A stretch of 64,000 bases of DNA from a virus, in the IMG/VR virus record IMGVR_UViG_3300045988_076196, positions 32,242 to 96,241 of that record; one strand, 5' to 3'. The position numbers and the translations under genes were made by a program. The notes under the pieces are model-generated. The model was not told the origin of the DNA, ran no database searches, and saw only the letters and a program-made list of their open reading frames with translations. This document shows positions 9,129 through 62,206 of the stretch, in pieces (position 1 is the stretch's first letter; each line of letters begins with the position of its first letter).

Positions 9129-10271
9129 TTATTCATCCTCCTCATTTTCATCACAATCTGCATTTACGAAATGGACATCTACGTTAAAAATTTCTTTCAA
9201 TACATCAATAGCCTCTTTTGGCTCGATGCGGAAAAATTCTCTATCGGGGTTGACCCGCTCTTTGTCAAAATATTTGTGGATATTATTTTCTAGCTCAAAG
9301 CAATCATCGCTAAATACGAAGCAATGAGCATGATATGGCTCTGGCAAGCTGCTAGAGCTGAGTTCGCGAACCCTCAATGCAGGATTCAATCTTCTGGTGC
9401 AACCTAGCTTTACCAATCCGGGCAAACTTGGTGATGTGATTACATATAGCCAACCAGCTTTACTATGTGACTCACGATAAGCAATAGAATCAAGTCGCTT
9501 ATCAATACTAGCTAATTGAGATTTAATCCTATTACGCTCATCATCTGTTAGTGCTTTATCAAAGGCAATATTCATTGCTTTCTTTTCTTCCAACAATTTC
9601 GCGCGTTCTCTAGCAATATCAGCAAGCAACTGCTCCTGTTCTCTTAATCTGCGCTTTTCTTCACGGATTCGCGTCTTTTCTTCTTTTTGCTTAACTTTAA
9701 TAGCCAAGTTAATATCAAGCATATCAAGCCGCGCTTTTACATACTCAGCATTAAGCGCCAATCCGACTTTATTTGCTTTAGACTGATAAGAATTAAATTT
9801 ATTCTTAATCAATTCTTTACTTTTAGCAATATTGCCTGTTGTTACAGATTTTTCTTTACTGTCAATATATCCGGACATTGCGTAGCACAAGCCTCTACCG
9901 TACACGTCCTGCATTTCTTTGCCACGTCTATTTGAACCATTTAGAGTGTATCCTTGCTCTATACGATATAGTCCAGTACTTACGGCAGATTCGATTTTGT
10001 CTTGTAACTGATAACGCCGATGTTCGAGTTCATCCAATGAATCTTGGTAATATGGAATATTATAATCCTGCATTTCTTCAATGGTATGAATTTTGCCATT
10101 TAGAGCATCAAGGACAGATTGAGCTGCTTTTGCAGATCGCATGGTGTTTTCATATTGATACGCCGCAATTTGCCGATGTTCGTCATAGTTATCAATCTCT
10201 GCTTGTATACTAGAAATATCTGCTTTAAGTTGAGCAATCTGTGCTTCAAGCTCTTTCTTTTTCTTGTTCAT
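9129..10271 (-). CDS. DUF4041 coiled-coil plus T5orf172 (GIY-YIG-like) domain protein
   Basis: C-terminal GWLYVITSPSLPGLVKLGCTRR ... REFFRI; ATG 10271 chosen, track start is TTG 10310. Confidence 0.65.
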   Translation of the reverse strand: MNKKKKELEAQIAQLKADISSIQAEIDNYDEHRQIAAYQYENTMRSAKAAQSVLDALNGKIHTIEEMQDYNIPYYQDSLDELEHRRYQLQDKIESAVSTGLYRIEQGYTLNGSNRRGKEMQDVYGRGLCYAMSGYIDSKEKSVTTGNIAKSKELIKNKFNSYQSKANKVGLALNAEYVKARLDMLDINLAIKVKQKEEKTRIREEKRRLREQEQLLADIARERAKLLEEKKAMNIAFDKALTDDERNRIKSQLASIDKRLDSIAYRESHSKAGWLYVITSPSLPGLVKLGCTRRLNPALRVRELSSSSLPEPYHAHCFVFSDDCFELENNIHKYFDKERVNPDREFFRIEPKEAIDVLKEIFNVDVHFVNADCDENEEDE

Positions 10272-10476
10272 TTTGAAAATCTCGAACACGTCTAGCTGTC
10301 TCCTTGTCAAAAATCTTGTCTATATTCTTATCAAAATCTAATGGATTGCTGCTCTTTGCTAAAATCTGCTTGGTGCTGATATTATATAGCTCGAATTGCC
10401 CATTGCCGCAATCATTGATAATCCAGCCAGTATCGTCATATTGGACTACGGCGTTAATTTTCTTTGTTCTTGGCAT
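10246..10476 (-). CDS. hypothetical protein, first gene of the leftward early operon
   Basis: 76-aa ORF; aggtgaaataa-ATG RBS; consensus promoter about 25 nt upstream. Confidence 0.5.
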   Translation of the reverse strand: MPRTKKINAVVQYDDTGWIINDCGNGQFELYNISTKQILAKSSNPLDFDKNIDKIFDKETARRVRDFQNEQEKERA

Positions 10477-10866: not shown

Positions 10867-11010
10867 TTGTGGAGCGAAATGAGCTATAACTGGTATGTAT
10901 CGGAAGATACAGAACCAGAAGTATGGGATGATGAATATGAGCCAACTGAGCGCGATTGGTCGCTTTGGATATATGGTAGTTCAGAGAATGATTTAGAGGT
11001 GATTTTTTGA
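10867..11010 (+). CDS. 47-aa acidic, Trp-rich leader ORF
   Basis: aaggaggtggtaagaaa-TTG (or ATG 10879); its stop overlaps the TTG start of the polymerase gene (TTGA). Confidence 0.4.
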   Translation: MWSEMSYNWYVSEDTEPEVWDDEYEPTERDWSLWIYGSSENDLEVIF

Positions 11011-12890
11011 GCCTACAGACGCAAGTTTATTTGCATTCAGTAGATACGTCATGCTTTTATGATGACAACGAAATGACGCTACATAGACGGCTTGTTCGGT
11101 TATATTCTTTGCGTAAGCGATGGAAGGATAGTGATAAACCAGATTGGCGTATCAAGTCTGTAAATCGTTTGCTTAAAAAAGAAAAGGTGCGACTATCTGA
11201 ATTGCTCGATGATGCAGTGAGACGAAATGAAACTAGAAAATTGCGTCAAGATGCTGTGACCGATAAAACGGTTGTTAATCTATTTGAATCTGACTTAACA
11301 CGCAGCTTAGGACTTGACCCGTTCAAGTTGACAGATGAGCTGTTCATCATTAACGTATTTTTCTTTCAGGTATTTAATAATCTAGTTCATCAAGGATTTA
11401 TTTACAATGGTGAAAAATATGTGTTCCTTACAGCATCAGCTGGACAGATAAGAACGAAAAGAGCCGTATTCGTTAAAGAATCGTCGTTTAAGCGCATTGA
11501 GCAAAAATTGATGTGCGGCTTGACCATAGACGAAATCAATGAGCGCGGAGGCATGAATCAGAATAAATTCCTTGCATATTTGGCGCTTATGAACTCTGCC
11601 ACAGATGTTTGGGAAGATTTTGATATTGACAAATCAATCGTAGTAGATGATTGGGAAACGGCTGTTCCGGGATTGGTTGATCATATTGATGGCGTATCGT
11701 ATGAGATTCGGCGCGAAATGACAGAGACGATTATTCCTCATATGGACGGATGCGGTATTATGCTCAATGAAACAACAAGAATGGTGCGTATGCCATGGGT
11801 AAAGGGATTACTTGTTACATTTCCGTTTGATAAGTTTATCAAAGAAAAATGCGGTGGCGAGGCAACAGTAACGGATATTTATGGCAATGAGCATAAAATT
11901 ATAGAGGAAGATATACGGTATATATTCACAAAAAGCCAATTCAAGCTATGGAAATTTTATGATTCGTGGAATTGTTATAAGGCGCGATTCAAAAATTTTG
12001 GATGCAATGCTTGTTATTGCAACATAGAAGAACCGTATATTCCAAAGAGCCGCATCAATTATCAGATGCTTCAAACCTTGAGTGATATGACTGATAATGA
12101 GATTGATCGCATTATTTCTAAGACTGCGCAAGAGATTGACGATGTTGGTAAAGATTATCAAGTTACTATGCGGTTACTTGGCGCAACAGAGAACAATCGT
12201 TATAAATCAGCTATGCAAGAGGCGTTGCTGATTTATCCTGAATTATTCAAAGATTCATATAATCGAGAAATTCTGAAGCAGACTAAAAAGAGCCTAGTTA
12301 AACAAGCCAAAGGTGGGCGGCTTAGAGTAAATGGGAAATATTTATTCTTAGCGCCTGACTTGTATGCGTTTTGTGAATGGCTGTTCCTAGGTGAGCAGAA
12401 TCCACAGGGACTGCTTGCAGATGGTGATGTATATACTAATCAATATCGTGATGGTGATGAATTAGCTTGTTTGCGTTCTCCGCATTTGTATAGGGAATGG
12501 GCAATTCGGACAAATAGGCGTAGCTTAGAGCTTGATTATTGGTTTGGTGGAACTAAGTGTATATATACTAGTTGTCATGATTTAATAACAAGGATAGTTA
12601 TGGCGGACTGCGACGGTGATAAATTATTGGTTGTAAAAGACCGAACATTGACAAATTGTGCGAAAAGGAATATGTCTGATATTTGTACTTTGGCATATGA
12701 TCTCAAAAAGGCGAAGGGAGGTTTGGTAAATTCAGATAGCTTATACGAAGGAATGATTAGAGCATATACCGGTGGCAACATTGGTATTTGGAGTAATCAA
12801 ATAACTAAAATTTGGAATAGCGGGAATATTACTAAGGAAGAATTGGACGTTGTAAAATGGTTGTGTTTTGAGAATAATGCAGTAATTGAT
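11007..12890 (+). CDS. YonO / cellular-RdRP-like single-subunit RNA polymerase, exon 1
   Basis: FLTASAGQIRTKRAVF (about 11424-11471) resembles the RdRP FLxFSxSQLRxxxxWF motif; LRSPHLYREW ... ADCDGD (DCDGD at 12606-12620) matches the DxDGD metal-binding motif; the frame stops at TAA right at the intron start. Confidence 0.6.
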
Positions 12891-13930
12891 TAAATGATAG
12901 TCCACTCATGCGGCAACGCATGATGTGAATGATGGTGAACTCGTAAATGCGAGGTGTGCGGAGAAATCCGTGCTAACGGTAAAACCCTAAACGTATGAAC
13001 GCATGGCAATACCGTGGCAAGATTGTGTGATAAATATTAAGATGAAAGGAGGGACAATATGAGAAAGATTAGTTTGATTGGCAAGAAATTTGGGAGATTG
13101 ACGGTTTTATCTGATGCTGGAACAAAAGGTGGTAGAACATATTCTAACTGTCTATGCGATTGTGGTAAAATGGTGGTAGTTAGTAACAAACATCTAAAAA
13201 GTGGGCATACAAAATCTTGTGGATGTTATAAAAACGAAATTATTGGCGAAATTGGTAAAATAACCGGCAAGACAAATATCAAGTATGCGCAAAAGCAAGC
13301 ACATGAAAATAATAGAAAACATGATATGTCTGGAACAAGATTGTATAGAATTTGGTTACAGATGAAACAGAGATGTCACAACGAGAAGAACGACAGGTAT
13401 CAATATTATGGCGGTAAGGGCGTTTGCGTTTGTGATGAATGGAGAGAAGATTTTCAAGAATTTGAACAATGGTCGAATAACAATGGATATAGAGATGACT
13501 TGACCATTGATAGAATAAATTCTAATAAAAATTATGAACCGTCTAATTGTCGTTGGATATCTCAAAGTGAAAATAGCGCAAGAATACATCGTGATGTGAG
13601 ATACTGGTGTATTGATGTACAAGGCGGAAGATATGCAGAATTTGACAATATTAGAGAATTTTGCAGAAATAATCCTGAGATCGCAAATGAGAATCATGTG
13701 AGATACGCTGTTAGCGGAAAATGTGAAAATCAAGGCGATATTATATTTGGCAAGTTTTAATATTTTATCACACAATAAGCTGTAACGACTAGCCCATTAG
13801 GGCGTAGCTTGTAGGTGAAATTCCTACTCGCAAAGTGCCATCCATCTCTATGAGATGAAGAGATAGTCTACTCCGACTGTTTGAGCAGTGTTAAAGTATC
13901 TCGAAAGAGACGGTATGAAGGTATGCTAAG
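12891..13930 (+). mobile_element. group I intron (td-like, IA2-type) carrying an HNH homing endonuclease; 3' boundary +/-30 nt
   Basis: begins taaatgatag after an exon-terminal U (T4 td begins taattgagg); aaatccgtgctaacgg, taacgactagcccattagggcgtagc and gagatagtctactcc closely resemble T4 td core elements. Confidence 0.7.
13059..13760 (+). CDS. intron-encoded HNH homing endonuclease
   Basis: gaaaggaggg RBS; CxC...HTKSCGC zinc cluster; DRINSNKNYEPSNCRWISQSEN (HNH_3-like); paralog of 63280..63951. Confidence 0.8.
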   Translation: MRKISLIGKKFGRLTVLSDAGTKGGRTYSNCLCDCGKMVVVSNKHLKSGHTKSCGCYKNEIIGEIGKITGKTNIKYAQKQAHENNRKHDMSGTRLYRIWLQMKQRCHNEKNDRYQYYGGKGVCVCDEWREDFQEFEQWSNNNGYRDDLTIDRINSNKNYEPSNCRWISQSENSARIHRDVRYWCIDVQGGRYAEFDNIREFCRNNPEIANENHVRYAVSGKCENQGDIIFGKF

Positions 13931-15100: not shown

Positions 15101-15656
15101 ACATAATAAGCTGAATCAGGAATTTTATGTTTATGCTGGTGGATTGCTCAATGTATCGCCCCAGACCGCCAAGAAATACTGGATGGGGTTTGTTGATACT
15201 ATTATTCATATTCTTCATTTTGATGGCAAGTGTCAAATGCCAAGCATAGGCACATTTACGTTAGAAGAATTGCCTGAGCGCAGAGTGATGGCTAAGAATG
15301 AGCAGGGTGAACTTGTTGAGCAAATCAACCCTGCTTGGTTTAAGATATTATACAAATACAATGAGGATTTTCTTAACAATGTCAATGGGCGTGGCGTTAC
15401 AAAGAAATATCGTAGGCGCGTCCGTGAACGTAAATTAACACCAAACGATCTCAAGCTAATTACTCAAGCAGAAGCAGAACGAACAGCAAAGCGCACGTTG
15501 AAACAGATGCAAGATGACCGCATTGAGCAAGCAAGGCAACAGAGCTATGATGATTTTATCAATGTGATCAACAAGAAAAAAGAAGACTATGAACGGAAAA
15601 AGAAGGAAAAGGAACAGAAATTGAATGAATCTACAGAAGATACGACAAGCGACTGA
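15093..15656 (+). CDS. HU/IHF-like DNA-binding protein with a K/E-rich tail
   Basis: SPQTAKKYWMGFVDTIIHIL...MPSIGTFTLEELPERR...NPAWFKILYKYNEDFLNNVN; ATGGCTGA overlap with the upstream gene. Confidence 0.55.
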   Translation: MAEHNKLNQEFYVYAGGLLNVSPQTAKKYWMGFVDTIIHILHFDGKCQMPSIGTFTLEELPERRVMAKNEQGELVEQINPAWFKILYKYNEDFLNNVNGRGVTKKYRRRVRERKLTPNDLKLITQAEAERTAKRTLKQMQDDRIEQARQQSYDDFINVINKKKEDYERKKKEKEQKLNESTEDTTSD

Positions 15657-16824
15657 GCTGCTAGATAGCAAGTTGATTGACTTGCAAGAATGGACGGCTC
15701 GTTGTCTTGGTGAAGATTATAGGGGTGTCTGGTCAGAGGAATATTTACGTCGATGTGCTGTGTTTGTAAGAAATATGCTCAATAGTGCAGACGATTGTGA
15801 ATCAGACGAAAAAGACACCAATATTCTATCACAACTCAGAGAGGCTAAGCAGGAACTAGAGAAATCACGTCTTAAACTGCGCACAGAAAATCTTGAATAT
15901 GCGGCAAATATGCGCGAGGTGGCACGACATGATATGCTTAATGAAGAAATTGTCGCAGCTATCAATCGGCTTGAACCAATCAAGTTTAGTCGTAAATTCG
16001 AGCCAGACCCAATTAAAGAGCAAATTGGTGTGTTGTGTATTGGCGACGAACATTATGGCACAATGATTGATATGGATTCATTATTTGGTGAAAAGGTTAA
16101 TGTGTATAATCCTGACGTATTCAAGGCGCGAATGGAAAAGCTGATGAATAATATCGAGGATGACGCATATTCCGTATCAGCATTCAGCCGTTTGGTTGTG
16201 TTTGATATGGGGGATTCCATTCAGGGCGCACTTAGATTATCAGACCTTATGAAGCTCAAAGCTGGTATTGTAGATAGTGCTATGCAGTATGCCGAATATA
16301 TCAGTCAATGGCTAGTTGAATTGAGTGAACGTCTACAAGTGCCGATTGAATATATCGCAGTTGGTGGTAATCATAGCGAATTGAGACTACTCAATGGCAA
16401 GAAGGGCGATTTCCAAGAAGATAACATTGCTAAGATCATTACACAGATTGTGCAGTTGCGACTTAAGGACAATCCAAACATTGAGGTTGCACCATATGCT
16501 GAATGTGGGTTTAAGTCAATTCAAGGTGTGAATATCCTAGCATATCATGGTGACGATACCAAAGATGTAACTAGAGAAATCGCGTTCTTTGAGGATTATC
16601 ATCAGATTGATATTGACATTCTACTACTTGGACATTTCCATCATCTTGAGCAACAGTCAGTTGGTATTGGTTTGAATACTGAAAAAGAGGTCATTAAATG
16701 TCCGTCCATTGTTGGTATTGATGATTATAGCAAGAAATGCCGCAAGTTGTCAAGAGCTGGTGCATTGCTCATGCTGTTTGAAGATGGGCAAAAGACGTGG
16801 ACTAAGAAATATATTTTGAATTGA
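15625..16824 (+). CDS. calcineurin-like metallophosphoesterase (possible Mre11/SbcD-type nuclease)
   Basis: motifs IGDEHYG, MGDSIQG, GGNHSE, YHGD, GHFHH in the canonical order. Confidence 0.75.
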   Translation: MNLQKIRQATELLDSKLIDLQEWTARCLGEDYRGVWSEEYLRRCAVFVRNMLNSADDCESDEKDTNILSQLREAKQELEKSRLKLRTENLEYAANMREVARHDMLNEEIVAAINRLEPIKFSRKFEPDPIKEQIGVLCIGDEHYGTMIDMDSLFGEKVNVYNPDVFKARMEKLMNNIEDDAYSVSAFSRLVVFDMGDSIQGALRLSDLMKLKAGIVDSAMQYAEYISQWLVELSERLQVPIEYIAVGGNHSELRLLNGKKGDFQEDNIAKIITQIVQLRLKDNPNIEVAPYAECGFKSIQGVNILAYHGDDTKDVTREIAFFEDYHQIDIDILLLGHFHHLEQQSVGIGLNTEKEVIKCPSIVGIDDYSKKCRKLSRAGALLMLFEDGQKTWTKKYILN

Positions 16825-17321
16825 TTCATTCTCTGCTAGGTGATAGCTAGTTTAGCTGTGTTAATCATGCTTGTGGGGCGATTGACCTATCTAGTAGAGT
16901 TGAATATATCTCATGTACCATGCGTACAAGGAGTTTTCAGAGCCGTGTATGGCGGCCCTTGTAAGACAAAAAAACATAACAGAGGGTGGCGCTAGATGCC
17001 CGATGGCGCTTGATAAATGGGGTTTTAATAGTTGTATCTAGGTATATACTGTAACTGCCTGTCGCTATGCCCATTGGCGGCTATGAATATCCGAAAGGAG
17101 GTCACTATTCTCTTGAATTATCCACTGGTTTATCCGAAGCATAATTAAAGAAAGGATGGTGGTCAGAGCCAATCGGCTCATATCTACAATAAGCCCAACT
17201 CAATGGGAACTGTTGTTTAACTGAATATTGAACCTTGACAAATACGAAGCAGCTGAGAGCAATCTTGGCTGCTTTGTCATATTTATAGGAAAATAAACGG
17301 AAAGGAAGGAAGTAGCAAAAT

Positions 17322-18146
17322 ATGTTTTGCCCATATTGCGGCAAGGAAAAGCAAGATAGCCAATTCTATAAAAGCCCAATTAAAACGGGCGAATATATTA
17401 AACCATGCAAGTCATGTGTAACTGAGCTATACAAACAAGCACTTGAAGCCACTAAAGACCAAGGCGCGGCATTATGGTCAACTTGTATGCAGACTGGTAT
17501 TCCTATGCGACGGGCTGAATATACCGCTTGTCTTGATACACTAGAAAAGGCGGCTAAAGGCAAAAAGCCTAGTCTATTTATGTTGTATCATACATACTTA
17601 TCAACATCACCGGATAAATTGACTGGTGTATGGGATAGCGATATGGAGCTGTCTAATTTCAAGGATTTGGGCGATGTGGCTAAGAGCGAAACGGATGAAG
17701 TTGCATTAAAGGCAAGATGGAATCGTCAGTGGGGCGTTGATTATGAAGAATGGGAATATCAGTGGCTTGATGACATATTTGATAGATATACGGAAGAAAT
17801 TCTTGATATGGACACAGCTAAAGAGATGACATATAGGAATCTGTGTCAAGCCAATCTGCGTAAATTCAAAGACCCAACAGATAAAGACGCTGGGGATGAA
17901 ATTCTTAAATTGATGAAGGTACTAAAACTAGACCAGTTTAAGGAAAATAAGCAGAGCGATACAGAAAAATTCATTGAGCGCATGGCTTGGAATATTGAAA
18001 ATACAAAACCGTGTGAATGTGAGGATTTGAATAAATATAAGGATTTTAGTGGATTTGAGCTGACTTGGAATCATATTATGAGAAGTTTGAAAAATCTATG
18101 CGCCGGATCAAAAGACTATCCAGACATCCCTGTTGATGAGCGATGA
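17322..18146 (+). CDS. possible small terminase subunit (by position only)
   Basis: 274-aa ORF immediately upstream of TerL; N-terminal CPYCG...CKSC zinc finger; no diagnostic motif. Confidence 0.3.
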   Translation: MFCPYCGKEKQDSQFYKSPIKTGEYIKPCKSCVTELYKQALEATKDQGAALWSTCMQTGIPMRRAEYTACLDTLEKAAKGKKPSLFMLYHTYLSTSPDKLTGVWDSDMELSNFKDLGDVAKSETDEVALKARWNRQWGVDYEEWEYQWLDDIFDRYTEEILDMDTAKEMTYRNLCQANLRKFKDPTDKDAGDEILKLMKVLKLDQFKENKQSDTEKFIERMAWNIENTKPCECEDLNKYKDFSGFELTWNHIMRSLKNLCAGSKDYPDIPVDER

Positions 18147-18162
18147 TTGGTGGTGATATGAA

Positions 18163-20007
18163 ATGAAGAGTCAAATGGGAGGACTTCGTAGGAAGTTTAT
18201 GTCCAACCACTTAATCACGACCGAGGCATGGTCTGGTAAAAGCAAATCGGAAGAGAAAGAGCAAAACGCAATAGAGTGGCTGACTCTTTTTTAGTTCCGT
18301 AGGAATTGGCACATATATGTAGATATGGTGCTTGGTATTAAGCTAAGGCCATTCCAGATGGTTATGATATATTTAATGGGTATATCTCCATTCTTTTATG
18401 CAATCTGTTCTAGAGGTTTGTCAAAATCATTTATGGCTGGACTTGGAGCAATATGTAAGATGAATCTATATCCGTATAGCGAGATTGTTATTACATCGTC
18501 TACTGTTCAACAGGCTAATAAATTAGCTGATAAAAAGATACGCGATGAAATAATTAAGAAGCTCTCAAGTTATTTGTTATACATGTACGAGCATGAGTAT
18601 ATAGTTATAACAAAGCCGGATGATGGTACAAAGATAGAAAATAAGTTAAATGGCTCAACTATTGTTGTATTGCCGTGTACTGAGGCAAGCCGTGGTGAAC
18701 GTGCAACACTGCTTATTTATGAAGAGGTGCGTTTGCTTAAAAAGACAATTCTTGATGCGGTCTTTGAAAAGATGCCACACCCAAGACAGGCCAAATATAT
18801 GGATAATCCTGTTTATGGGAATAATAAACGATGGATTGAAGAATGCCAGCGTATCTACATTACGTCCGCAAGATATAAATATGAATGGTTTTGGCGTTCT
18901 TTTAAGAATGTGTTCACTCAGCATTTTATAGACAAGCGCGTCAATCATAATGTTTTTGCTGGTGATATATTTATGGCAATAGATAATCGCTTAAAGACGT
19001 GGGCTGATTATCGCAAAGACAAGGCGGAGTCTGAGATGGATTGGAAAATGGAAGACCTCAACCAGATGATAGGCGAGGCTGAGGATGCGTTTTTCACATA
19101 CGAGCAATTTAAGACAGCGCAAATTTTACAGCATTGTTTTAGACCTCTTACATACCTTGATTTCTTCTCTGGTGAACAGGTTGATTTTCCAGAGAAAAAG
19201 GAAGATGAAGTGCGACTCGTTGTGGTTGACTACGCATTTTCCAACACTACTGGTTGTACAAAGAACGACAATACCATTATTACGCTCATGTCGGCGCATT
19301 GGGATAAAAAGAAAAATCGGTTTGAACGTCATATTGATTATATAGAGGGACATGATGCTTCTGACACAATAGGCGCATCTGATAGAGCGAGATACTTATG
19401 GTGGGTATATGATGCGGATTATCTATGTCCCGATGGACGCTCTGGTGGTGAAGTTCTATTCAATCATATGACAGAGCCATTGTCTTGGCCGGAATTAGGA
19501 CTTAGGTGGAATAAGCACGGATTAGGTCTTGCAGATAAATACCAGATGGTTCCACAAGCAAAATTGGATGATTATAGAAGTCGTGTCGTTGACAAAGATG
19601 CAGTTCCAGCTATTATACCCGTGATAGGCACACCAGAGTTGAACTCTACTGGTTGGTTGTCACTGCGTAAACAGCTTGAAACTAACAATATGAAATTCCT
19701 TATTTCTATGCAAGATTATCAGAATGAGCTAACAGATAGTGGTGAATATTATAAATATACTGCTGAAGAATTAGTTAATCAGCTTGAGCCATACGGACAG
19801 ACAGATATGACAATCATAGAGGCAGTTAATCTAAAGACGGTTATTAAGCAAGATAAAATCAAACTAGAAGAACCGCGCACAGGAACTAAGGATAGAATTG
19901 TAACCATTATGTATGGAAATTATATTATTGACTTGATTGAGAACGCATGGCAACAACAGTTACAAGAAGATGAGTTTGATGTTGATTCGATTCAATTAGT
20001 ATATTAG
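18163..20007 (+). CDS. terL: terminase large subunit, with an in-frame TAG at 18292-18294 (uninterrupted ORF is 18325..20007)
   Basis: Walker A-like CSRGLSKS, Walker B LLIYEEV, nuclease VVVDYAFS...DNTIIT; the upstream 43 codons are in the same frame and have a GGTGGTGA RBS, whereas ATG 18325 has no RBS. Confidence 0.75.
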
Positions 20008-20157
20008 TATTTGCCTATGAAGCGGTAGCTATGTTGGTGTGTTGCCGTGGAGGCACTATTAGGGTTGTGTGGAATCCAAGTTCCAACTGAGGCTTAATCA
20101 AAAAAAGTTGAAAATAAAAACACTCAAAAAATATAAAACAAGGAAAGGAGGTTGAAG

Positions 20158-21735
20158 ATGCCAAAAAATAATGAAGATGTGAAGCTGTCTAAAAATGACC
20201 TTCAGGATATTATTGATTTTAGTGCAGGTCTGATGGCGGTTGATAATTTTTACTCACCATTTCTGAGCAACCAGCTATTGACCAATCTAAACAATAATCC
20301 TCGTCTACCTAATGCAGAGGCGGTAAAAAAGGCGCTCAATGATTATAAGAATAGCGGCGCCGATTTACAGGGTTTTGTAGAATTTGCATCAGCGTTTGAT
20401 ATGATTTTCAAGCGCACTTTATATTCTTATGCAAATGCGCTATCTTTCGACCTTCAGATAACGTGCAAAAATGCATATACAAAGGGCGACTATGAATCAG
20501 AGGAATATAAGAAAGACCGGCAGACAGTAGATAATTTCTTGACCAATTTTGATTACAAGAAAGAATTTTATAATGTTCTGCTAAATGTCTTAAAGCGCGA
20601 CTCATATTTTACTTGGTTTAGAAAGACTAAGAGCGGTAATCGCGGCAAGATGAAGTATGCTCTACAAATTATGCCACAAGATTATTGTATGCTTACGGGG
20701 TACTTTGAAAAAGGGTTGCTGTGGTCTTTTAATGTACTGTATTTTATGCAACCGGGCGTAGATATTGAGGGATTTGACCCAAGTCTCAAAAAGACATATC
20801 TTGATGCGATTGAAAATGCTGAGTTAAATTACAAGCCGTCTGCGCCACTCGATAAACGTAATGGTAGTTATGCTCTATGGGCAGATGTATCACCACTTAA
20901 TGGTGCTTATGCTTGGAAATTTTCTACAGATAACTTTGCTAACAATCCATTCTTATCGCCATATGTAGCAAATGTTTTACGTAGTGATGAGGTTGGAGAA
21001 TTACAGTATAACAAAGATCTTATCTCTGCGGCTGGTATTCTAGCTGGTGAGATTAGATTATTTGATTCAGCCAAGTCAGGCACGAAGGCGAATCAGTTCG
21101 CCATTGATCCGAAAACGCTTGGTGCATTTATGCAAAAGGCGGCTAATGGACTAAAGAATGCTGCCAAACTAGCAGCTATACCACTTGAGAATATTAAATA
21201 TTTCCAATTTGAGGATAAGAACCCAAATAGCTATACAAATGAGCTAACTACAACAGCTGGTATTGGTACTGGCATTAGCCGTGTTATCTATTCATCCGAT
21301 AAGATGAGTAATGCTGAACTAGAGGCGGCGCTTAATGAGGTCTATCAGACCATGAAGCCAATGTATGCTCAGTTCAATAATTTCCTTGATTTCTATGTGA
21401 ATCAAATGACAAGCAAATATAAGTTTAAGTTTGAGTTTGTTGGTTCTAACTATCAATTTGAGCGCGATGCTAGATTTGATAAGATGATGAAAATGGCTGA
21501 TAAGGGGCTTGTACTCAATTCATCTGCATGGGCTAGTGCTGTTGGTATGAACCCTGTCACATTTGATAGGATGCTTGCTGAGAGTAAATATACTGGATGG
21601 ATTGATAAGTATTCGACCATGATGCTTAACGCTAATACATCGTCTTACAAAGATAATAAGGGCGGGCGTGAACGCAAGAACGCTAGAGATTTGACCGATT
21701 CAGGCGAAGCAAGCCGAGAAACATTAGAGGAATGA
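20158..21735 (+). CDS. portal protein (by position and size)
   Basis: about 525 aa directly downstream of TerL; GGAGG 6 nt before ATG 20158. Confidence 0.6.
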   Translation: MPKNNEDVKLSKNDLQDIIDFSAGLMAVDNFYSPFLSNQLLTNLNNNPRLPNAEAVKKALNDYKNSGADLQGFVEFASAFDMIFKRTLYSYANALSFDLQITCKNAYTKGDYESEEYKKDRQTVDNFLTNFDYKKEFYNVLLNVLKRDSYFTWFRKTKSGNRGKMKYALQIMPQDYCMLTGYFEKGLLWSFNVLYFMQPGVDIEGFDPSLKKTYLDAIENAELNYKPSAPLDKRNGSYALWADVSPLNGAYAWKFSTDNFANNPFLSPYVANVLRSDEVGELQYNKDLISAAGILAGEIRLFDSAKSGTKANQFAIDPKTLGAFMQKAANGLKNAAKLAAIPLENIKYFQFEDKNPNSYTNELTTTAGIGTGISRVIYSSDKMSNAELEAALNEVYQTMKPMYAQFNNFLDFYVNQMTSKYKFKFEFVGSNYQFERDARFDKMMKMADKGLVLNSSAWASAVGMNPVTFDRMLAESKYTGWIDKYSTMMLNANTSSYKDNKGGRERKNARDLTDSGEASRETLEE

Positions 21736-33880: not shown

Positions 33881-34396
33881 ATGGTTATATGTGGACTTGA
33901 TGCAAGCACCTCTTGCACTGGATGGTCTATATTTGATAATGGTGAACTCATTGCATATGGCGCAATCAAGCCCAAGGGTGATGATTGGCACGATAGGGTA
34001 ATGGGGCTTACTATGGAATTATCAAAAATATTTAGACAGTATCAACCCACCATTATCTATGCAGAGGAAGTGCCATTAAAAAAAGGCGCATCTACTATAG
34101 AAAAATTGGGCGCAGTGCAAGGCGTGATTTTAGCATTATGCGCTGGCTTCAAGATAAAGCCATGCTTCTTGATGCCAAGTAAATGGCGTGGCGACCTTAA
34201 TCTCTTTGATGGCACAAGAGCCGGATTACAAAGAGATGTTCTGAAGAAAAAAGCCATAGAGATGGCGAATGAAGAATTTGGCCTCGAATTGGCATGGGTT
34301 GCCCCAAGTAGCAAAAAGAATGAGGATGATTGCGCGGAAGGAATCCTCATAGCCTACTCACAAATTAAGAAAAAAGGGAGTGTGATGAATGGCTAA
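33881..34396 (+). CDS. RuvC-like Holliday junction resolvase
   Basis: ICGLDASTSCTGWSIF, IIYAEEVP and DDCAEGILIA correspond to the RuvC catalytic acidic motifs. Confidence 0.75.
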   Translation: MVICGLDASTSCTGWSIFDNGELIAYGAIKPKGDDWHDRVMGLTMELSKIFRQYQPTIIYAEEVPLKKGASTIEKLGAVQGVILALCAGFKIKPCFLMPSKWRGDLNLFDGTRAGLQRDVLKKKAIEMANEEFGLELAWVAPSSKKNEDDCAEGILIAYSQIKKKGSVMNG

Positions 34397-34766
34397 AAGT
34401 TCAAATTACTCGATACTCGTTGATGCTGAGTTAGACTTAAAACAAATCACACAAAAACTTAATTCACAGAAATATAAAATAGATGTAGAAGCTAATATGA
34501 CTGGTGATGCGGCAGACAAACTAAGAAATACAAATTCTGCCACTCGGTCATTAGAGGAATCTACAGTGGATCTTACTCTTACATATCAGCAATTTAGACA
34601 AGTACTTGATTCTGTTATTGATGTAACGAGTAAAATGTATGAGCAAGTCAAGGCGTTAGACACAGCACAAACGGAGTTTAAGAAAGTCTCGGACTTGTCT
34701 GGTCAAGCACTTGATGATTATACAGATAAACTTGCTCAGATGGGCAAGACAGTTGGCCGCACCGGT
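34389..34766 (+). CDS. tape measure protein, exon 1 (126 codons)
   Basis: typical TMP N-terminus ...LDTAQTEFKKVSDLSGQALDDYTDKLAQMGKTVGRTG; reading on gives 15 unrelated codons and a stop. Confidence 0.65.
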
Positions 34767-35104
34767 AAACCAAATCGGTCTGAGCCGGTATGTACAAATG
34801 GTAAATGTGCATAGAGAACAGCCCCTAAACCCTTGAAAGCCTCAAGAGCCTTATCACTACAACATGAGGATGAGATAAGCCTGAGTGTGATTATTAACAA
34901 TGAATCAGCGCGAAAGCAGAAAGACGATAAGGATGATTCCATGGTTGAAAAACCTAAAGAATCTGTCTTAAATAATGTATGATATTTGAGACAAAAGGGC
35001 AGATTGGGCGCGAAGCCGTGATGAGCGGTGTGTCAATCGAATATACAGGGCGACCCTCCAATTATATAGGGTGAAGAAATATTCAGGAAGGGATTAAAAA
35101 CCCC

Positions 35105-59905: not shown

Positions 59906-62206
59906 TTATTCACATTTTGTCCAGCCGCACGACTTACAAATTTTGCAACCGCCCTCAAACATTACTGGTTCACCACATTCAGGGCACAGCTCTGCTGGAA
60001 TTGCAGATAATGTTTCGCTTAGCTTCTCAATACTTGCAGTAGCTTTATTAAATGCATTGGATAAGCCCTTAAAGCTACTAACAGTATCATCTTCTTTATC
60101 ATCTAGTTCACTCTGCATCTCATTATACATCTCTACTAGAGCATTGCCAATAGCCATAGGACAACAAGAGCCTTTGCTTGTATCATGGTGAGTTGCCTTT
60201 CTAGTAGCATAGGACGGGCATACACCAGTTGAATCAAGTTGGTCTTTGATGGTCATAATATCCACACCAGCACGACATAGTAGGCTGACCATGCGGCTTA
60301 GACCTGTCATGAAATTAGCGCATCCGCCTGTCGAGCCTTTATTGAAATATACTTCTTGTAGATTACCATCAATAGGGTCAAAGAATGCTAGAACATGAAG
60401 TGAGCCGCATCCTGTCTGAATTTTGCGCTTTTTGCCAATCAGGTCATTACTTGGTTCGATGATTGAGCCGCGAGGTAGAGTAAGAGATGTGGGTTCAGGC
60501 TTTGATTCATTGTCTTTCTTTGGTTCAGCATTTAGAATACCAGCCCTCTTGCATCCGGCACGATATACTGTAATACCCTTTAGATGCTTTTCCCAAGCGT
60601 ACATATATAGGTCTTTTACATCATCTACTGTTGCTTCATTTGGTAGATTGACAGTTGAGCTAATACTTGCATCAATATGTTTCTGCCATACTGACTGCAT
60701 ATCAATACGCCGCTTGATAGGAATGGTAGCAGATGTGACGAAATAGGGAGGTAGCCCAAGTTCGTCTTTAATACCATGAGCATCCATATATTCCTTGACG
60801 ATTGGTGTATATACCTTATATACCTCATCATGCCCATGCAAGGATTTTGTAGTGCGCTCATAATAGTTAGCAAAGATTGGCTCAATGCCACCTGATACGC
60901 CAATCATTGTACTGATAGAACCAGTTGGAGCAATGGTTAATAGCTGGCTATTACGCATACCGTTCATATCAATAGATAAATGAGCTTCAATATCGTCTTC
61001 TTTGATGTGCTCTGTAAAAAATGGAGATGCAGCCACCTTATATACATCCCACTTTTCGTAACATCCTTTGTCTCGTGCCACATCAGCACTAGCTACAATA
61101 GCATTACGAGCCATAGAATAGCCAATGGAATTGCATAGAACGATAGAATCAGGAGAGCCGTATTCAATACGTAGCTTGATTAGCATATCGGCTAGTCCCA
61201 TGATGCCAAGCCCAATTTGCCGCCAATCCCTAACCGTCTTGCGCTGTTCAGCTAGTGGATGCCGCTCAAGCCCCTCATCCAACACATCATTTAGTGCTTT
61301 AACTGCAATACTTACAGTTCTGTTAAAATCGTCCCAATCAAACTTACCATTACGGACAAATTCAGCTAGGTTGATTGCGCCAAGTAGACACGAGCCTCCT
61401 GCTGGTAGTGGTTCTTCTGCACAGGGATTTACACCAGCATATTCAAAATCCTTATCATTGCTTACTAGGTTCCAGTTGGTAATTCTATCCCAATAGAGAA
61501 TACCCGGTTCAGCATAGTCCCAATTATTACGGCATAACAGGTTAAAAATATCTCGCGCTTTTACTGTTTTCTTGATTTCTTCGCCTGTTTCATTGCGCTT
61601 ATAGTATAGTTCCCAATCTTCATCATTTTTAACTGCTACCATAAAACGGTCTGTAACGCGAACTGAGATATTAGCAGATGTTACTTTGCCCAAGTCGGAT
61701 TTGACCGCAATGAATTTTTCGAGGTCTGGATGGGTACAATCAATACTAATCATCAATGCACCGCGTCTACCATTCTGACCAATCTGTTCTGTTACTTGAC
61801 TGAATGTGTCCATAAAGCTGACTGCGCCAGATGTGGATTTGGCTTGATTATTGACCTTTGCGCCACATGGAGCAAGTTTACTGATGTCGATGCCGCAGCC
61901 TCCTCCATAACTATAAGTACGAGCCAGTTTTTTAGCAGTATCGTAAATTGACTCGATATTATCTTCTGGTGGTGAAATAACATAACAGTTACTATATGTT
62001 ACCTTTTCGTCATCAATGCCGCGATTGCTCAAGATGCGCCCACCAAATAAGAATTTCTTATCAGCAATAAGCTCTGCTACATCTGCATCGCCACCACTTA
62101 CACGATCAAGCCAATTTTCAAAAGATTCCCCATTACGTTGGTATTTCTTCTTCCAGATGTCAATACCAAGCTGATTTTCTTTACCTAGCCATTCTTCAAC
62201 AAACAA
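59906..62206 (-). CDS. nrdJ: class II (adenosylcobalamin-dependent) ribonucleotide reductase
   Basis: VNPCAEEPL active-site loop, TIAPTGSIS, C-terminal CPECG...CKICKSCG zinc ribbon; no beta-subunit gene nearby; TTG start 7 nt after AAGGAGGA. Confidence 0.85.
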   Translation of the reverse strand: MFVEEWLGKENQLGIDIWKKKYQRNGESFENWLDRVSGGDADVAELIADKKFLFGGRILSNRGIDDEKVTYSNCYVISPPEDNIESIYDTAKKLARTYSYGGGCGIDISKLAPCGAKVNNQAKSTSGAVSFMDTFSQVTEQIGQNGRRGALMISIDCTHPDLEKFIAVKSDLGKVTSANISVRVTDRFMVAVKNDEDWELYYKRNETGEEIKKTVKARDIFNLLCRNNWDYAEPGILYWDRITNWNLVSNDKDFEYAGVNPCAEEPLPAGGSCLLGAINLAEFVRNGKFDWDDFNRTVSIAVKALNDVLDEGLERHPLAEQRKTVRDWRQIGLGIMGLADMLIKLRIEYGSPDSIVLCNSIGYSMARNAIVASADVARDKGCYEKWDVYKVAASPFFTEHIKEDDIEAHLSIDMNGMRNSQLLTIAPTGSISTMIGVSGGIEPIFANYYERTTKSLHGHDEVYKVYTPIVKEYMDAHGIKDELGLPPYFVTSATIPIKRRIDMQSVWQKHIDASISSTVNLPNEATVDDVKDLYMYAWEKHLKGITVYRAGCKRAGILNAEPKKDNESKPEPTSLTLPRGSIIEPSNDLIGKKRKIQTGCGSLHVLAFFDPIDGNLQEVYFNKGSTGGCANFMTGLSRMVSLLCRAGVDIMTIKDQLDSTGVCPSYATRKATHHDTSKGSCCPMAIGNALVEMYNEMQSELDDKEDDTVSSFKGLSNAFNKATASIEKLSETLSAIPAELCPECGEPVMFEGGCKICKSCGWTKCE

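What the first reader, a model, noticed from the sequence alone, without database searches (positions are those of the whole stretch)
18163..18327. In-frame amber codon (TAG 18292-18294) near the 5' end of the large terminase gene
I translated this region by hand. ATG 18163 has a good GGTGGTGA RBS and opens 43 codons ending ...NAIEWLTLF. A TAG follows, and then FRRNWHIYVDMVLGIKLRPFQ... continues in the same frame into the Walker A region.
- The 10 codons between the TAG and the first downstream ATG (18325) look like the conserved (W/F)xRNPxxFVxxxLGIKLxPxQ segment of terminases.
- ATG 18325 has no RBS.
- The essential TerL therefore seems to need either readthrough or suppression of one TAG, or an RBS-less internal start.
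- Both TerL and the polymerase gene also terminate in TAG.

Alternatives: amber suppression by a host or phage tRNA encoded outside the window, regulated low-level readthrough limiting TerL dosage, a sequencing error, or a defective prophage.
Basis: seen in the sequence. Interest (0 to 1): 0.65.

Follow-up and report, generated by a model that had tools for sequence, protein, structure and literature searches.

The report
Ribosome hop over stop in terminase
The essential DNA-packaging gene of this gut phage and its relatives is interrupted by a stop codon plus 0-3 extra bases flanked by two matching codons, and the comparison of relatives says the ribosome most likely hops over this tiny gap, which would be the first natural example of a 'stop-hop' so far seen only in synthetic constructs.

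Summary
ATG 18163 opens 43 codons, TAG 18292-18294 interrupts them, and the same frame runs on into the large terminase (TerL), which ends at TAG 20005-20007. It is not a sequencing error. The interruption sits at the same spot in 31 distinct junction sequences from many metagenome contigs.

In every interrupted relative the insert is a stop codon, then 0-3 further bases, then a copy of the codon before the stop:
- UUY-UAG-UUC (the window and its closest relatives)
- UUC-UGA-UUC
- UUC-UAGCAA-UUC
- UAU-UAG(C/G/U)-UAU
- UAU-UAGUU-UAC
- UUC-UAG-UUA (near-match only)

The gaps are 3, 4, 5 or 6 nt, so all three frames occur and two different stop codons are used. About 95 uninterrupted homologous proteins have exactly W-x-T-x-[F/Y]-R-R-N-W, with no length variation. 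Only a hop of peptidyl-tRNA(Phe/Tyr) from the take-off codon to the matching landing codon restores this motif in every variant.

I found no suppressor tRNA, no genome-wide TAG recoding and no conserved stimulatory RNA structure. The best reading is a natural short translational bypass ("stop-hop"), confidence about 0.7. It is inferred from comparison only; no protein data exist.

The parts
18149..18156 (+). Shine-Dalgarno-like GGTGGTGA serving ATG 18163
   Evidence: Read directly from the sequence. It lies 6 nt upstream of the ATG.
18163..18291 (+). ORF1: the first 43 codons of TerL (MKSQMGGLRRKF...NAIEWLTLF)
   Evidence: It is conserved as protein in relatives, and in uninterrupted homologs it is continuous with the rest of TerL. 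It is also present as 42-43-aa mini-ORFs in 14 protein clusters, all ending exactly at this F or Y.
18289..18291 (+). Proposed take-off codon TTT (Phe43), in the P site when the stop enters the A site
   Evidence: The 99%-identical relatives have TTC here. Other lineages have TTC or TAT, which matches or nearly matches the codon at the end of the insert.
18292..18294 (+). TAG: the 3-nt coding gap (slow-to-decode A-site codon), proposed to be bypassed
   Evidence: The gap in relatives is TAG, TGA, TAGC, TAGG, TAGT, TAGTT or TAGCAA.
18295..18297 (+). Proposed landing codon TTC (cognate to tRNA-Phe); decoding would resume at CGT 18298
   Evidence: Removing TAG+TTC gives EWLTLFRRNW, the same length as all uninterrupted homologs.
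18298..20007 (+). ORF2: the rest of TerL (RRNWHIYVD... to ...SIQLVY plus TAG stop). The hop product is 612 aa.
   Evidence: The AF2 model of the N-terminal domain matches large-terminase ATPases: T4 gp17, D6E, P74-26 and HK97. The C-terminus is colinear with PMBT24 TerL.
18325..18327 (+). In-frame ATG that gene callers use as the start. It is not a conserved start.
   Evidence: It has no SD. It is replaced by TTA in the largest interrupted clade. The codons between the stop and this position show mostly synonymous change.
17322..18146 (+). Upstream neighbour, a YonG_N-like protein with a zinc-ribbon-like CxxC…CxxC pattern at its N-terminus (read by eye). It is probably the small terminase; given as context.
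   Evidence: Its homologs in L128, L131 and L132 hit PF27269 YonG_N weakly. The window protein hits phrog_3314. It is syntenic in PMBT24.
20152..21735 (+). Portal protein; given as context.
   Evidence: phrog_2739, portal, E = 1.4e-33.

Best explanation
TerL is encoded in two pieces that the ribosome joins by a short programmed translational bypass, a 'stop-hop'.

1. Translation starts at ATG 18163.
2. Phe43 (UUU 18289-91) reaches the P site and UAG 18292-94 enters the A site, where decoding is slow.
3. Peptidyl-tRNA-Phe unpairs from the take-off codon.
4. The mRNA slips 6 nt and the same tRNA re-pairs with the cognate UUC at 18295-97.
5. Decoding resumes at CGU 18298.

The product is a 612-aa TerL reading ...EWLTLF-RRNW..., colinear with uninterrupted homologs. 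Ribosomes that terminate instead release a 43-aa peptide.

Shown by the data:
- The interruption is conserved.
- The insert follows the rule of a stop, then 0-3 nt, then a copy of the preceding codon.
- Gap lengths cover all three frames.
- The flanking motif never varies in length.

Inferred:
- The hop itself.
- Its efficiency.
- Its purpose. One possibility is keeping TerL dosage low. Another is that the insert is a tolerated scar that breaks the target site of one of the homing endonucleases that plague this gene, as in T4 gene 60.
For: **1. The same site is interrupted in 31 unique junction sequences**. The forms are:
- UUC-UAG-UUA: 15
- UUC-UAG-UUC: 4
- UUU-UAG-UUC: 1 (the window)
- UUC-UGA-UUC: 3
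- UUC-UAGCAA-UUC: 3
- UAU-UAGC-UAU: 2
- UAU-UAGG-UAU: 1
- UAU-UAGU-UAU: 1
- UAU-UAGUU-UAC: 1

**2. The 4-nt and 5-nt gaps put ORF1 and ORF2 in different frames**. A triplet readthrough cannot join them. The take-off codon cannot re-pair at +1 or -1 either: UAU would have to pair with AUU or UUA.

**3. Take-off and landing codons co-vary.** They are Phe..Phe in four forms and Tyr..Tyr in four forms.

**4. The stop can be UAG or UGA**. The fourth gap base can be C, G or U.

**5. The flanking motif has a fixed length.**
- About 95 uninterrupted homologous proteins at roughly 46-83% identity, plus 59 uninterrupted viral loci, all have W-x-[T/S]-x-[F/Y/W]-[R/K]-R-N-x with no indel.
- R45 and N46 are invariant.
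- No homolog carries the 2-3 extra residues that translating the insert would add.

**6. The junction lies inside a confidently modelled helix**, residues 29-45.

**7. The codons after the landing site are under purifying selection.**
- Minimal synonymous to nonsynonymous changes are 44:13.
- In the clade with no canonical start before PFQ the ratio is 13:3.

**8. Other recoding routes lack support.**
- No tRNA gene lies in the 64-kb window.
- About 60 related loci carry no suppressor tRNA.
- No other real gene in the window has an in-frame TAG.

**9. Precedents exist.**
- Synthetic stop-hops use matched codons flanking a stop (review PMC5009743).
- T4 gene 60 has take-off GGA followed by UAG and a matched landing GGA.
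- A bypass has been proposed in the Streptomyces phage Hau3 terminase (PMC10732093).
Against: - No protein-level evidence exists.
- The most populous form (15 of 31) lands on UUA. That matches tRNA-Phe at only two of three positions.
- No conserved RNA structure surrounds the site (consensus -0.75 kcal/mol).
- Interrupted genes show no stronger SD-like pairing than uninterrupted ones.
- From my own recollection of the older literature, unstimulated stop-hops in E. coli run at roughly 1% efficiency; no tool result here gives a figure.
- For the in-frame forms, including the window itself, readthrough cannot be excluded from sequence alone.
- The variants may descend from one ancestral insert, so they are not fully independent observations.
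- The 5-nt-gap form rests on a single contig (L170).
- The phage genomes were only partly scanned for tRNAs.
Confidence: 0.7

Rival explanations
1. Stop-codon readthrough or suppression. A near-cognate or suppressor tRNA inserts an amino acid at UAG, giving ...LTLF-X-F-RRNW..., two residues longer. Lineages with 4-nt and 5-nt gaps would then need separate +1 or -1 frameshifts.
For: - In the window the stop is in frame.
- TAG is a rare terminator here, 4 of 74 ORFs.
- The commonest form, UUC-UAG-UUA, lacks a perfectly matched landing codon.
- A second TAG-terminated ORF (34389-34814) has a 56-codon in-frame extension that is conserved in L143.
Against: - It requires three unrelated mechanisms at one site.
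- The out-of-frame forms have no slippery re-pairing option.
- One lineage uses UGA instead of UAG.
- No CUA or UCA tRNA was found.
- TerL's own terminator is TAG.
- None of about 150 uninterrupted homologs has extra residues at this invariant, helical motif.
- It does not explain why the insert always ends with a copy of the codon before the stop.
Confidence: 0.15
2. Two separate products. ORF1 is an independent 43-aa leader peptide, and TerL starts downstream, at ATG 18325 or by termination-reinitiation.
For: - ATG 18325 exists in the window and in several lineages.
- Gene callers use it (P0025 and P0047).
- SPbeta-type homologs align only from residue 45.
Against: - ATG 18325 has no SD.
- The largest clade has TTA there and no ATG/GTG/TTG until after the PFQ motif. 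Its intervening 20 codons still change 13:3 synonymous to nonsynonymous.
- The RRNW motif just after the stop is the most conserved part of the N-terminus.
- ORF1 is fused to TerL in all uninterrupted homologs.
- The landing codons (UUC, UAU, UUA) are not start codons.
Confidence: 0.08
3. A non-functional state: sequencing or assembly error, a decaying prophage, or genome-wide reassignment of TAG.
For: None beyond the bare presence of an in-frame stop in an essential gene.
Against: - The same interruption occurs in dozens of independent contigs from different studies.
- Purifying selection acts on both sides.
- Only this one real gene has an internal TAG, and TAG also serves as a terminator.
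- The neighbouring structural genes are intact.
Confidence: 0.02

Closest known systems
Synthetic 'stop-hops' in E. coli (described in the Atkins et al. 2016 review, PMC5009743; I recall the original work as Weiss, Dunn, Atkins and Gesteland 1987 and O'Connor et al. 1989)
   Same: Matched codons flank a stop codon. Peptidyl-tRNA hops a few nucleotides, so that 9 nt specify one amino acid. No elaborate stimulatory signal is required. The window's UUU-UAG-UUC has exactly this architecture.
   Different: Those were engineered constructs. The review states that no natural occurrences are known. Here the element is natural, sits in an essential gene, and is conserved and diversified, with gaps of 3-6 nt and either UAG or UGA.
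Phage T4 gene 60 translational bypass
   Same: The take-off codon is followed immediately by UAG. There is a matched landing codon. Two ORFs are joined into one essential enzyme subunit. The host gene is one invaded by homing endonucleases.
   Different: Gene 60 skips 50 nt. It depends on a nascent-peptide signal, a take-off stem-loop, a 5' stem-loop and a mini-SD. Here the gap is 3-6 nt and I found no conserved RNA structure or SD. There is no sequence homology and no adjacent mobA-like gene.
Proposed UUA-triggered bypass in the large terminase of Streptomyces phage Hau3 (Smith et al. 2013; Antonov et al. 2023, PMC10732093)
   Same: Short frame-disrupting inserts lie in a phage large-terminase gene. 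The flanking sequence is contiguous in relatives that lack the insert. The argument that the junction is too conserved to accept extra residues is the same.
   Different: Hau3 has 10-nt inserts that begin with a rare 'hungry' sense codon (UUA), tied to bldA tRNA biology in actinomycetes. It has two sites and occurs in only 3 genes. Here the trigger is a stop codon, the gap is 3-6 nt, and there is one N-terminal site. The phages are gut phages related to Enterocloster phages, and the terminase family (YonF-like) is unrelated.
Mitochondrial 'byps' of Magnusiomyces capitatus
   Same: Many short inserts are bypassed, with take-off and landing codons that are matched or match at two of three positions. 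That resembles the UUC/UUA form here.
   Different: Those inserts are 27-55 nt, occur at 81 sites throughout a mitochondrial genome with relaxed decoding, and have an unused codon in the A site. The present case is a single conserved site in a phage gene.

Membership tests
Programmed translational bypassing (hopping) | Take-off and landing codons are cognate to the same peptidyl-tRNA | tested here: met
   Eight of 9 junction forms are cognate: UUY/UUC, UAU/UAU and UAU/UAC. One form (UUC/UUA) matches at 2 of 3 positions. Phe..Phe and Tyr..Tyr co-vary.
Programmed translational bypassing (hopping) | A slow-to-decode codon (stop or hungry codon) lies immediately 3' of the take-off codon | tested here: met
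   UAG or UGA directly follows the take-off codon in all 31 unique sequences.
Programmed translational bypassing (hopping) | The gap is non-coding: it can change frame, and removing it restores colinearity with uninterrupted homologs | tested here: met
   Gaps are 3, 4, 5 and 6 nt. Uninterrupted homologs have an invariant spacing that equals the hop product.
Programmed translational bypassing (hopping) | Stimulatory signals of the gene 60 type: mRNA stem-loops or an internal SD | tested here: not met
   No consensus structure was found. SD-like pairing does not differ between interrupted and uninterrupted genes. This feature defines the efficient gene 60 type. It does not define stop-hops.
Programmed translational bypassing (hopping) | The protein product lacks gap-encoded residues | not testable with these tools
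   This needs mass spectrometry of the junction peptide.
Stop-codon readthrough or amber suppression | The downstream ORF is in the same frame as the upstream ORF wherever the element occurs | tested here: not met
   The 4-nt forms (L016, L017, L133 and others) and the 5-nt form (L170) are out of frame.
Stop-codon readthrough or amber suppression | A suppressor tRNA is available, or the identity of the stop is conserved | tested here: not met
   No tRNA gene lies in the window. Only Ile(UAU) and Leu(CAA) tRNAs were found in relatives. Both UAG and UGA occur. Host tRNAs and the unsampled genome parts were not examined.
Genome-wide stop-codon reassignment (TAG to Gln, as in crAss-like and Lak phages) | Many genes carry in-frame TAG, and TAG is not used as a terminator | tested here: not met
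   Only TerL is joined by reading TAG as sense. TAG terminates 4 of 74 ORFs, including TerL itself.
+1/-1 programmed ribosomal frameshifting | A slippery site allows re-pairing on an overlapping codon | tested here: not met
   UAU-UAG-N offers AUU at +1 or UUA at -1 for tRNA-Tyr. There is no homopolymer run, and the T6 run in the window is broken in 99%-identical relatives.
Large terminase subunit (TerL) | ASCE ATPase fold of terminases with Walker A and an upstream Q motif, encoded next to the portal gene | tested here: met
   Pfam gives no hit. The AF2 model (pLDDT 84) gives 28 top Foldseek hits that are all large terminases. The closest homolog is annotated as terminase in PMBT24. The portal gene lies downstream.

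The most novel reading that the evidence does not exclude
This would be the first natural family of 'stop-hop' translational bypass elements. It is a 6-9-nt cassette (stop, 0-3 nt, repeat of the take-off codon) in the essential large-terminase gene of a clade of human-gut phages related to Enterocloster phages. It has been kept for long enough to diversify in gap length, frame, stop codon and take-off tRNA. It works without gene 60-like RNA signals. Its role could be to throttle TerL synthesis or to immunise a conserved target site against homing endonucleases.
Probability: 0.6. Interest if true: 0.85.

Novelty: new variant of a known kind. Interest (0 to 1): 0.8.

Why it matters
Programmed bypassing is one of the rarest decoding events. 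The accepted natural cases are T4 gene 60 and its homologs, the yeast mitochondrial byps, and the candidate sites in the Hau3 terminase.

Short stop-hops were shown in synthetic constructs. The field's main review states that natural occurrences are unknown, and that some cases read as 'readthrough' might in fact be hops.

This family offers a natural series of variants: gaps of 3, 4, 5 and 6 nt, UAG against UGA, Phe against Tyr tRNA, and cognate against near-cognate landing. That amounts to a ready-made mutational series for testing what a ribosome needs in order to hop.

There are practical consequences as well. Gene callers truncate TerL in these abundant gut phages, starting it at MVLGIKL... 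or MIMIYLMG.... That affects annotation, TerL-based phylogenies and any structural or defence-sensing study of their terminase.

Tried and rejected
- **Genome-wide TAG, TGA or TAA reassignment.** I rescanned the ORFs with each stop read as sense. Only TerL is joined.
- **Suppressor tRNA.** ARAGORN found none in the window or in 63 related loci. Type-B relatives carry only Ile(UAU) and Leu(CAA).
- **Transcriptional slippage on the T6 run.** The run is broken (TTC) in 99%-identical relatives and absent in other forms.
- **Conserved RNA structure around the site.** RNAalifold on 11 representative junctions gave -0.75 kcal/mol, which is essentially no structure. Single-sequence folds pair the U-rich take-off region with upstream purine-rich Glu/Lys codons, but not consistently.
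- **Internal SD stimulator.** Duplex energies with the 16S tail are the same for interrupted and uninterrupted genes.
- **Pfam and PDB sequence searches for TerL.** Neither gave a hit. Identity was established by structure prediction and Foldseek instead.
- **An apparent independent hop in a distant clade (L185).** This was a regex artefact. The gene is continuous.
- **Host identification through genome contigs.** The scan returned only MAG bins with uninterrupted genes.
- **Extending the near-identical genomes beyond the window ends to look for tRNAs.** This succeeded only for type-B relatives.
- **A general tendency to TAG readthrough, tested at the tail-chaperone-like ORF.** The result was inconclusive.

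Full report
**1. What is in the window**

- GGTGGTGA (18149-18156) precedes ATG 18163.
- Forty-three codons end ...NAIEWLTLF (TTT 18289-91) and are followed by TAG 18292-94.
- The same frame continues TTC CGT AGG AAT TGG... (FRRNWHIYVD), passes ATG 18325, which has no SD, and ends at TAG 20005-07.

The window is a gene-dense phage region of 39% GC. A YonG_N-like gene lies upstream of the interrupted gene and a portal gene lies downstream.

Pfam and PDB sequence searches do not recognise the protein. Other evidence identifies it as the large terminase:
- It is 47% identical to the annotated TerL of Enterocloster phage PMBT24.
- An AlphaFold model of the N-terminal 253 residues has pLDDT 84 and pTM 0.81. 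It matches only large-terminase ATPases at the top of a PDB fold search: T4 gp17, D6E, P74-26 and HK97.

**2. The stop is real, and it is an isolated case in this genome**

The window contains no tRNA gene. Of 74 ORFs of at least 80 codons, 43 end in TAA, 27 in TGA and 4 in TAG, including TerL itself. Reading TAG, TGA or TAA as sense joins no other real gene. Genome-wide code reassignment is therefore excluded.

Near-identical junctions appear in independent assemblies from different projects. A sequencing error is therefore excluded.

**3. What the relatives show**

I collected junctions from four sources:
- IMG/VR
- metagenome contigs
- contigs encoding the truncated or mini-ORF proteins
- one genome scan

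Thirty-one unique interrupted junction sequences were found. All lie at exactly the same place, between the F/Y codon and the RR-NW codons.

| Form (take-off, gap, landing) | Unique sequences |
|---|---|
| TTC TAG TTA | 15 |
| TTC TAG TTC | 4 |
| TTT TAG TTC (the window) | 1 |
| TTC TGA TTC | 3 |
| TTC TAGCAA TTC | 3 |
| TAT TAGC TAT | 2 |
| TAT TAGG TAT | 1 |
| TAT TAGT TAT | 1 |
| TAT TAGTT TAC | 1 |

The rule is a stop codon, then 0-3 further bases, then a copy of the codon that preceded the stop. The gaps of 3, 4, 5 and 6 nt cover all three relative frames of ORF1 and ORF2.

Close relatives without any interruption read:
- ...DWLTLF RRNW (L018)
- ...EWLTLF RRNW (L050, L116)
- ...HWITYF RRNW (L035)
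- ...EWATFY RRNW (PMBT24)

These are exactly what is obtained by deleting the gap and the landing codon.

**4. The junction cannot easily accept extra residues**

About 95 uninterrupted homologous proteins at roughly 46-83% identity all show W-x-[T/S]-x-[F/Y/W]-[R/K]-R-N-x with no length variation. So do 59 uninterrupted viral loci and 7 genome loci.
- R45 and N46 are invariant, and W39, T41, R44 and W47 are at least 90% conserved.
- In the model the junction lies inside helix 29-45.
- No homolog has a sense codon in place of the stop together with the two or three extra residues.

**5. Both sides are translated**
- ORF1 is part of TerL in every uninterrupted homolog.
- Fourteen database clusters are 42-43-aa mini-ORFs that end exactly at the take-off F or Y.
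- After the landing codon, the minimal synonymous to nonsynonymous change is 44:13 over 22 codons.
- In the TTC-TAG-TTA clade the ATG 18325 equivalent is TTA, and there is no ATG, GTG or TTG before the PFQ (Q-motif) codons. The ratio there is 13:3 over 20 codons. An internal start therefore cannot be the conserved solution.

**6. Mechanism**

The one event that gives the conserved protein in all forms is a hop. Peptidyl-tRNA-Phe or -Tyr is paired to the take-off codon while a stop sits in the A site. It unpairs, the mRNA moves 6, 7, 8 or 9 nt, and the tRNA re-pairs to the cognate landing codon. Decoding then resumes at the Arg codon.

Three observations are what this model predicts:
- the co-variation Phe..Phe against Tyr..Tyr;
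- the free choice of UAG or UGA;
- the free choice of the fourth gap base.

Readthrough would need to be supplemented by unrelated +1 and -1 shifts at sites with no slippery re-pairing option. It would also add residues to an invariant motif.

Caveats:
- The commonest form lands on UUA, a two-out-of-three match.
- I found no conserved RNA structure and no SD-like stimulator specific to interrupted genes.
- The efficiency is unknown.
- The variants may share one ancestral insertion.

On a TerL tree the interrupted genes form one subclade, interspersed with uninterrupted ones (L018, L050/L116, and the L035/L161 group). This implies several precise losses or several gains. One apparent distant case (L185) was a pattern-matching artefact.

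**7. Comparison with what is known**

[quoted passage not shown] The 2016 review by Atkins and colleagues states that no natural occurrences are known (PMC5009743). A 2024 preprint from the same school still lists only gene 60, the Hau3 terminase candidates and the Magnusiomyces mitochondria as natural bypassing.

The nearest biological precedent is the proposed UUA-triggered bypass of two 10-nt inserts in the large terminase of Streptomyces phage Hau3 (PMC10732093). Its terminase family, host, trigger and gap length all differ.

T4 gene 60 shares the layout of take-off codon, UAG and matched landing codon. It skips 50 nt with elaborate signals.

My literature searches found no description of the present element.

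**8. Function (inferred)**

Two possibilities stand out.
- **Dosage control.** Termination competes with hopping, so TerL, a catalytic non-structural protein, would be made at a fraction of ORF1 initiation.
- **Immunity to homing endonucleases.** TerL genes of this family are heavily invaded by group I introns and homing endonucleases. The insert might therefore persist because it disrupts an endonuclease target within a highly conserved DNA stretch, as proposed for gene 60. I have no direct evidence for this idea.

**9. Verdict**

The proposed mechanisms are not; a stop-hop fits best.

| Explanation | Confidence |
|---|---|
| Stop-hop | 0.7 |
| Readthrough plus frameshifts | about 0.15 |
| Split product or internal start | about 0.08 |
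| Artefact or decay | about 0.02 |

It is a new variant of a known kind and of high interest to the recoding field. It is directly testable with a junction-peptide mass spectrum or a dual reporter.

Noticed in passing
window 20012-20128 (+): A match to the Rfam 'drum' RNA (RF02958; 49.7 bits, gathering score 43, full length 1-112) fills the gap between the TerL stop (20007) and the portal start (20152).
   Followed up: no
L002 (Enterocloster phage CB457P1), L128, and proteins P0001-P0120: TerL genes of this family are often split by other insertions. CB457/CB473 phages have TerL in three pieces around an I-TevI-like endonuclease gene. L128 has a GIY-YIG/NUMOD3 gene after a 368-aa TerL piece. 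Many database homologs stop at about 290 or 422 aa, which suggests recurrent intron and homing-endonuclease insertion sites.
   Followed up: partly
window 34389-34979 (+), L143, L144: The ORF just upstream of the tape-measure region ends in TAG (34812-14) and is followed by a 56-codon in-frame extension (RTAPKPLKASRALSLQHEDE...). The extension is conserved in L143. In the more distant L144 the same stretch is nearly identical at the DNA level, but it lies in another frame and is interrupted by TAA and TGA. It may be a tail-chaperone-type recoding site or a conserved non-coding element.
   Followed up: partly
window 11007-12893 (+): A 628-aa ORF hits Pfam RdRP PF05183 (E = 7.5e-8). This resembles the YonO single-subunit RNA polymerase of SPbeta. 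Together with the YonF-like TerL and the YonG_N-like neighbour, it points to a distant kinship with SPbeta-like phages. It ends in TAA, not TAG.
   Followed up: no
L129 (logan SRR12177866_3072), just after the KLRPFQ codons: A relative with an intact N-terminal junction has a 1-nt deletion (CCA TTC CAA TGA TAA TGA... instead of ...CAA ATG ATA ATG). That puts the rest of TerL in the +1 frame. It rests on a single contig, so it could be an error or another recoding site.
   Followed up: no
L239 14152-14244 and 16135-16211; L240 13773-13848 and 14711-14794: Relatives with the TTC-TAG-TTA junction carry tRNA-Ile(UAU) and tRNA-Leu(CAA) genes. No such genes lie in the 64-kb window. Neither is a suppressor.
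   Followed up: partly
window 16825-17321: A stretch of about 500 bp has no ORF of 100 aa or more on the + strand. It lies between the exonuclease-like gene (15625-16824, phrog_284) and the YonG_N-like gene. It could hold a pac site, a promoter or an RNA. No Rfam family matched at gathering score.
   Followed up: no
window 9129-10310 (-) and 59906-62206 (-): A T5orf172/MUG113-domain protein (GIY-YIG-like, possibly a free-standing endonuclease) and a class II-like ribonucleotide reductase with a TSCPD domain are encoded on the minus strand.
   Followed up: no
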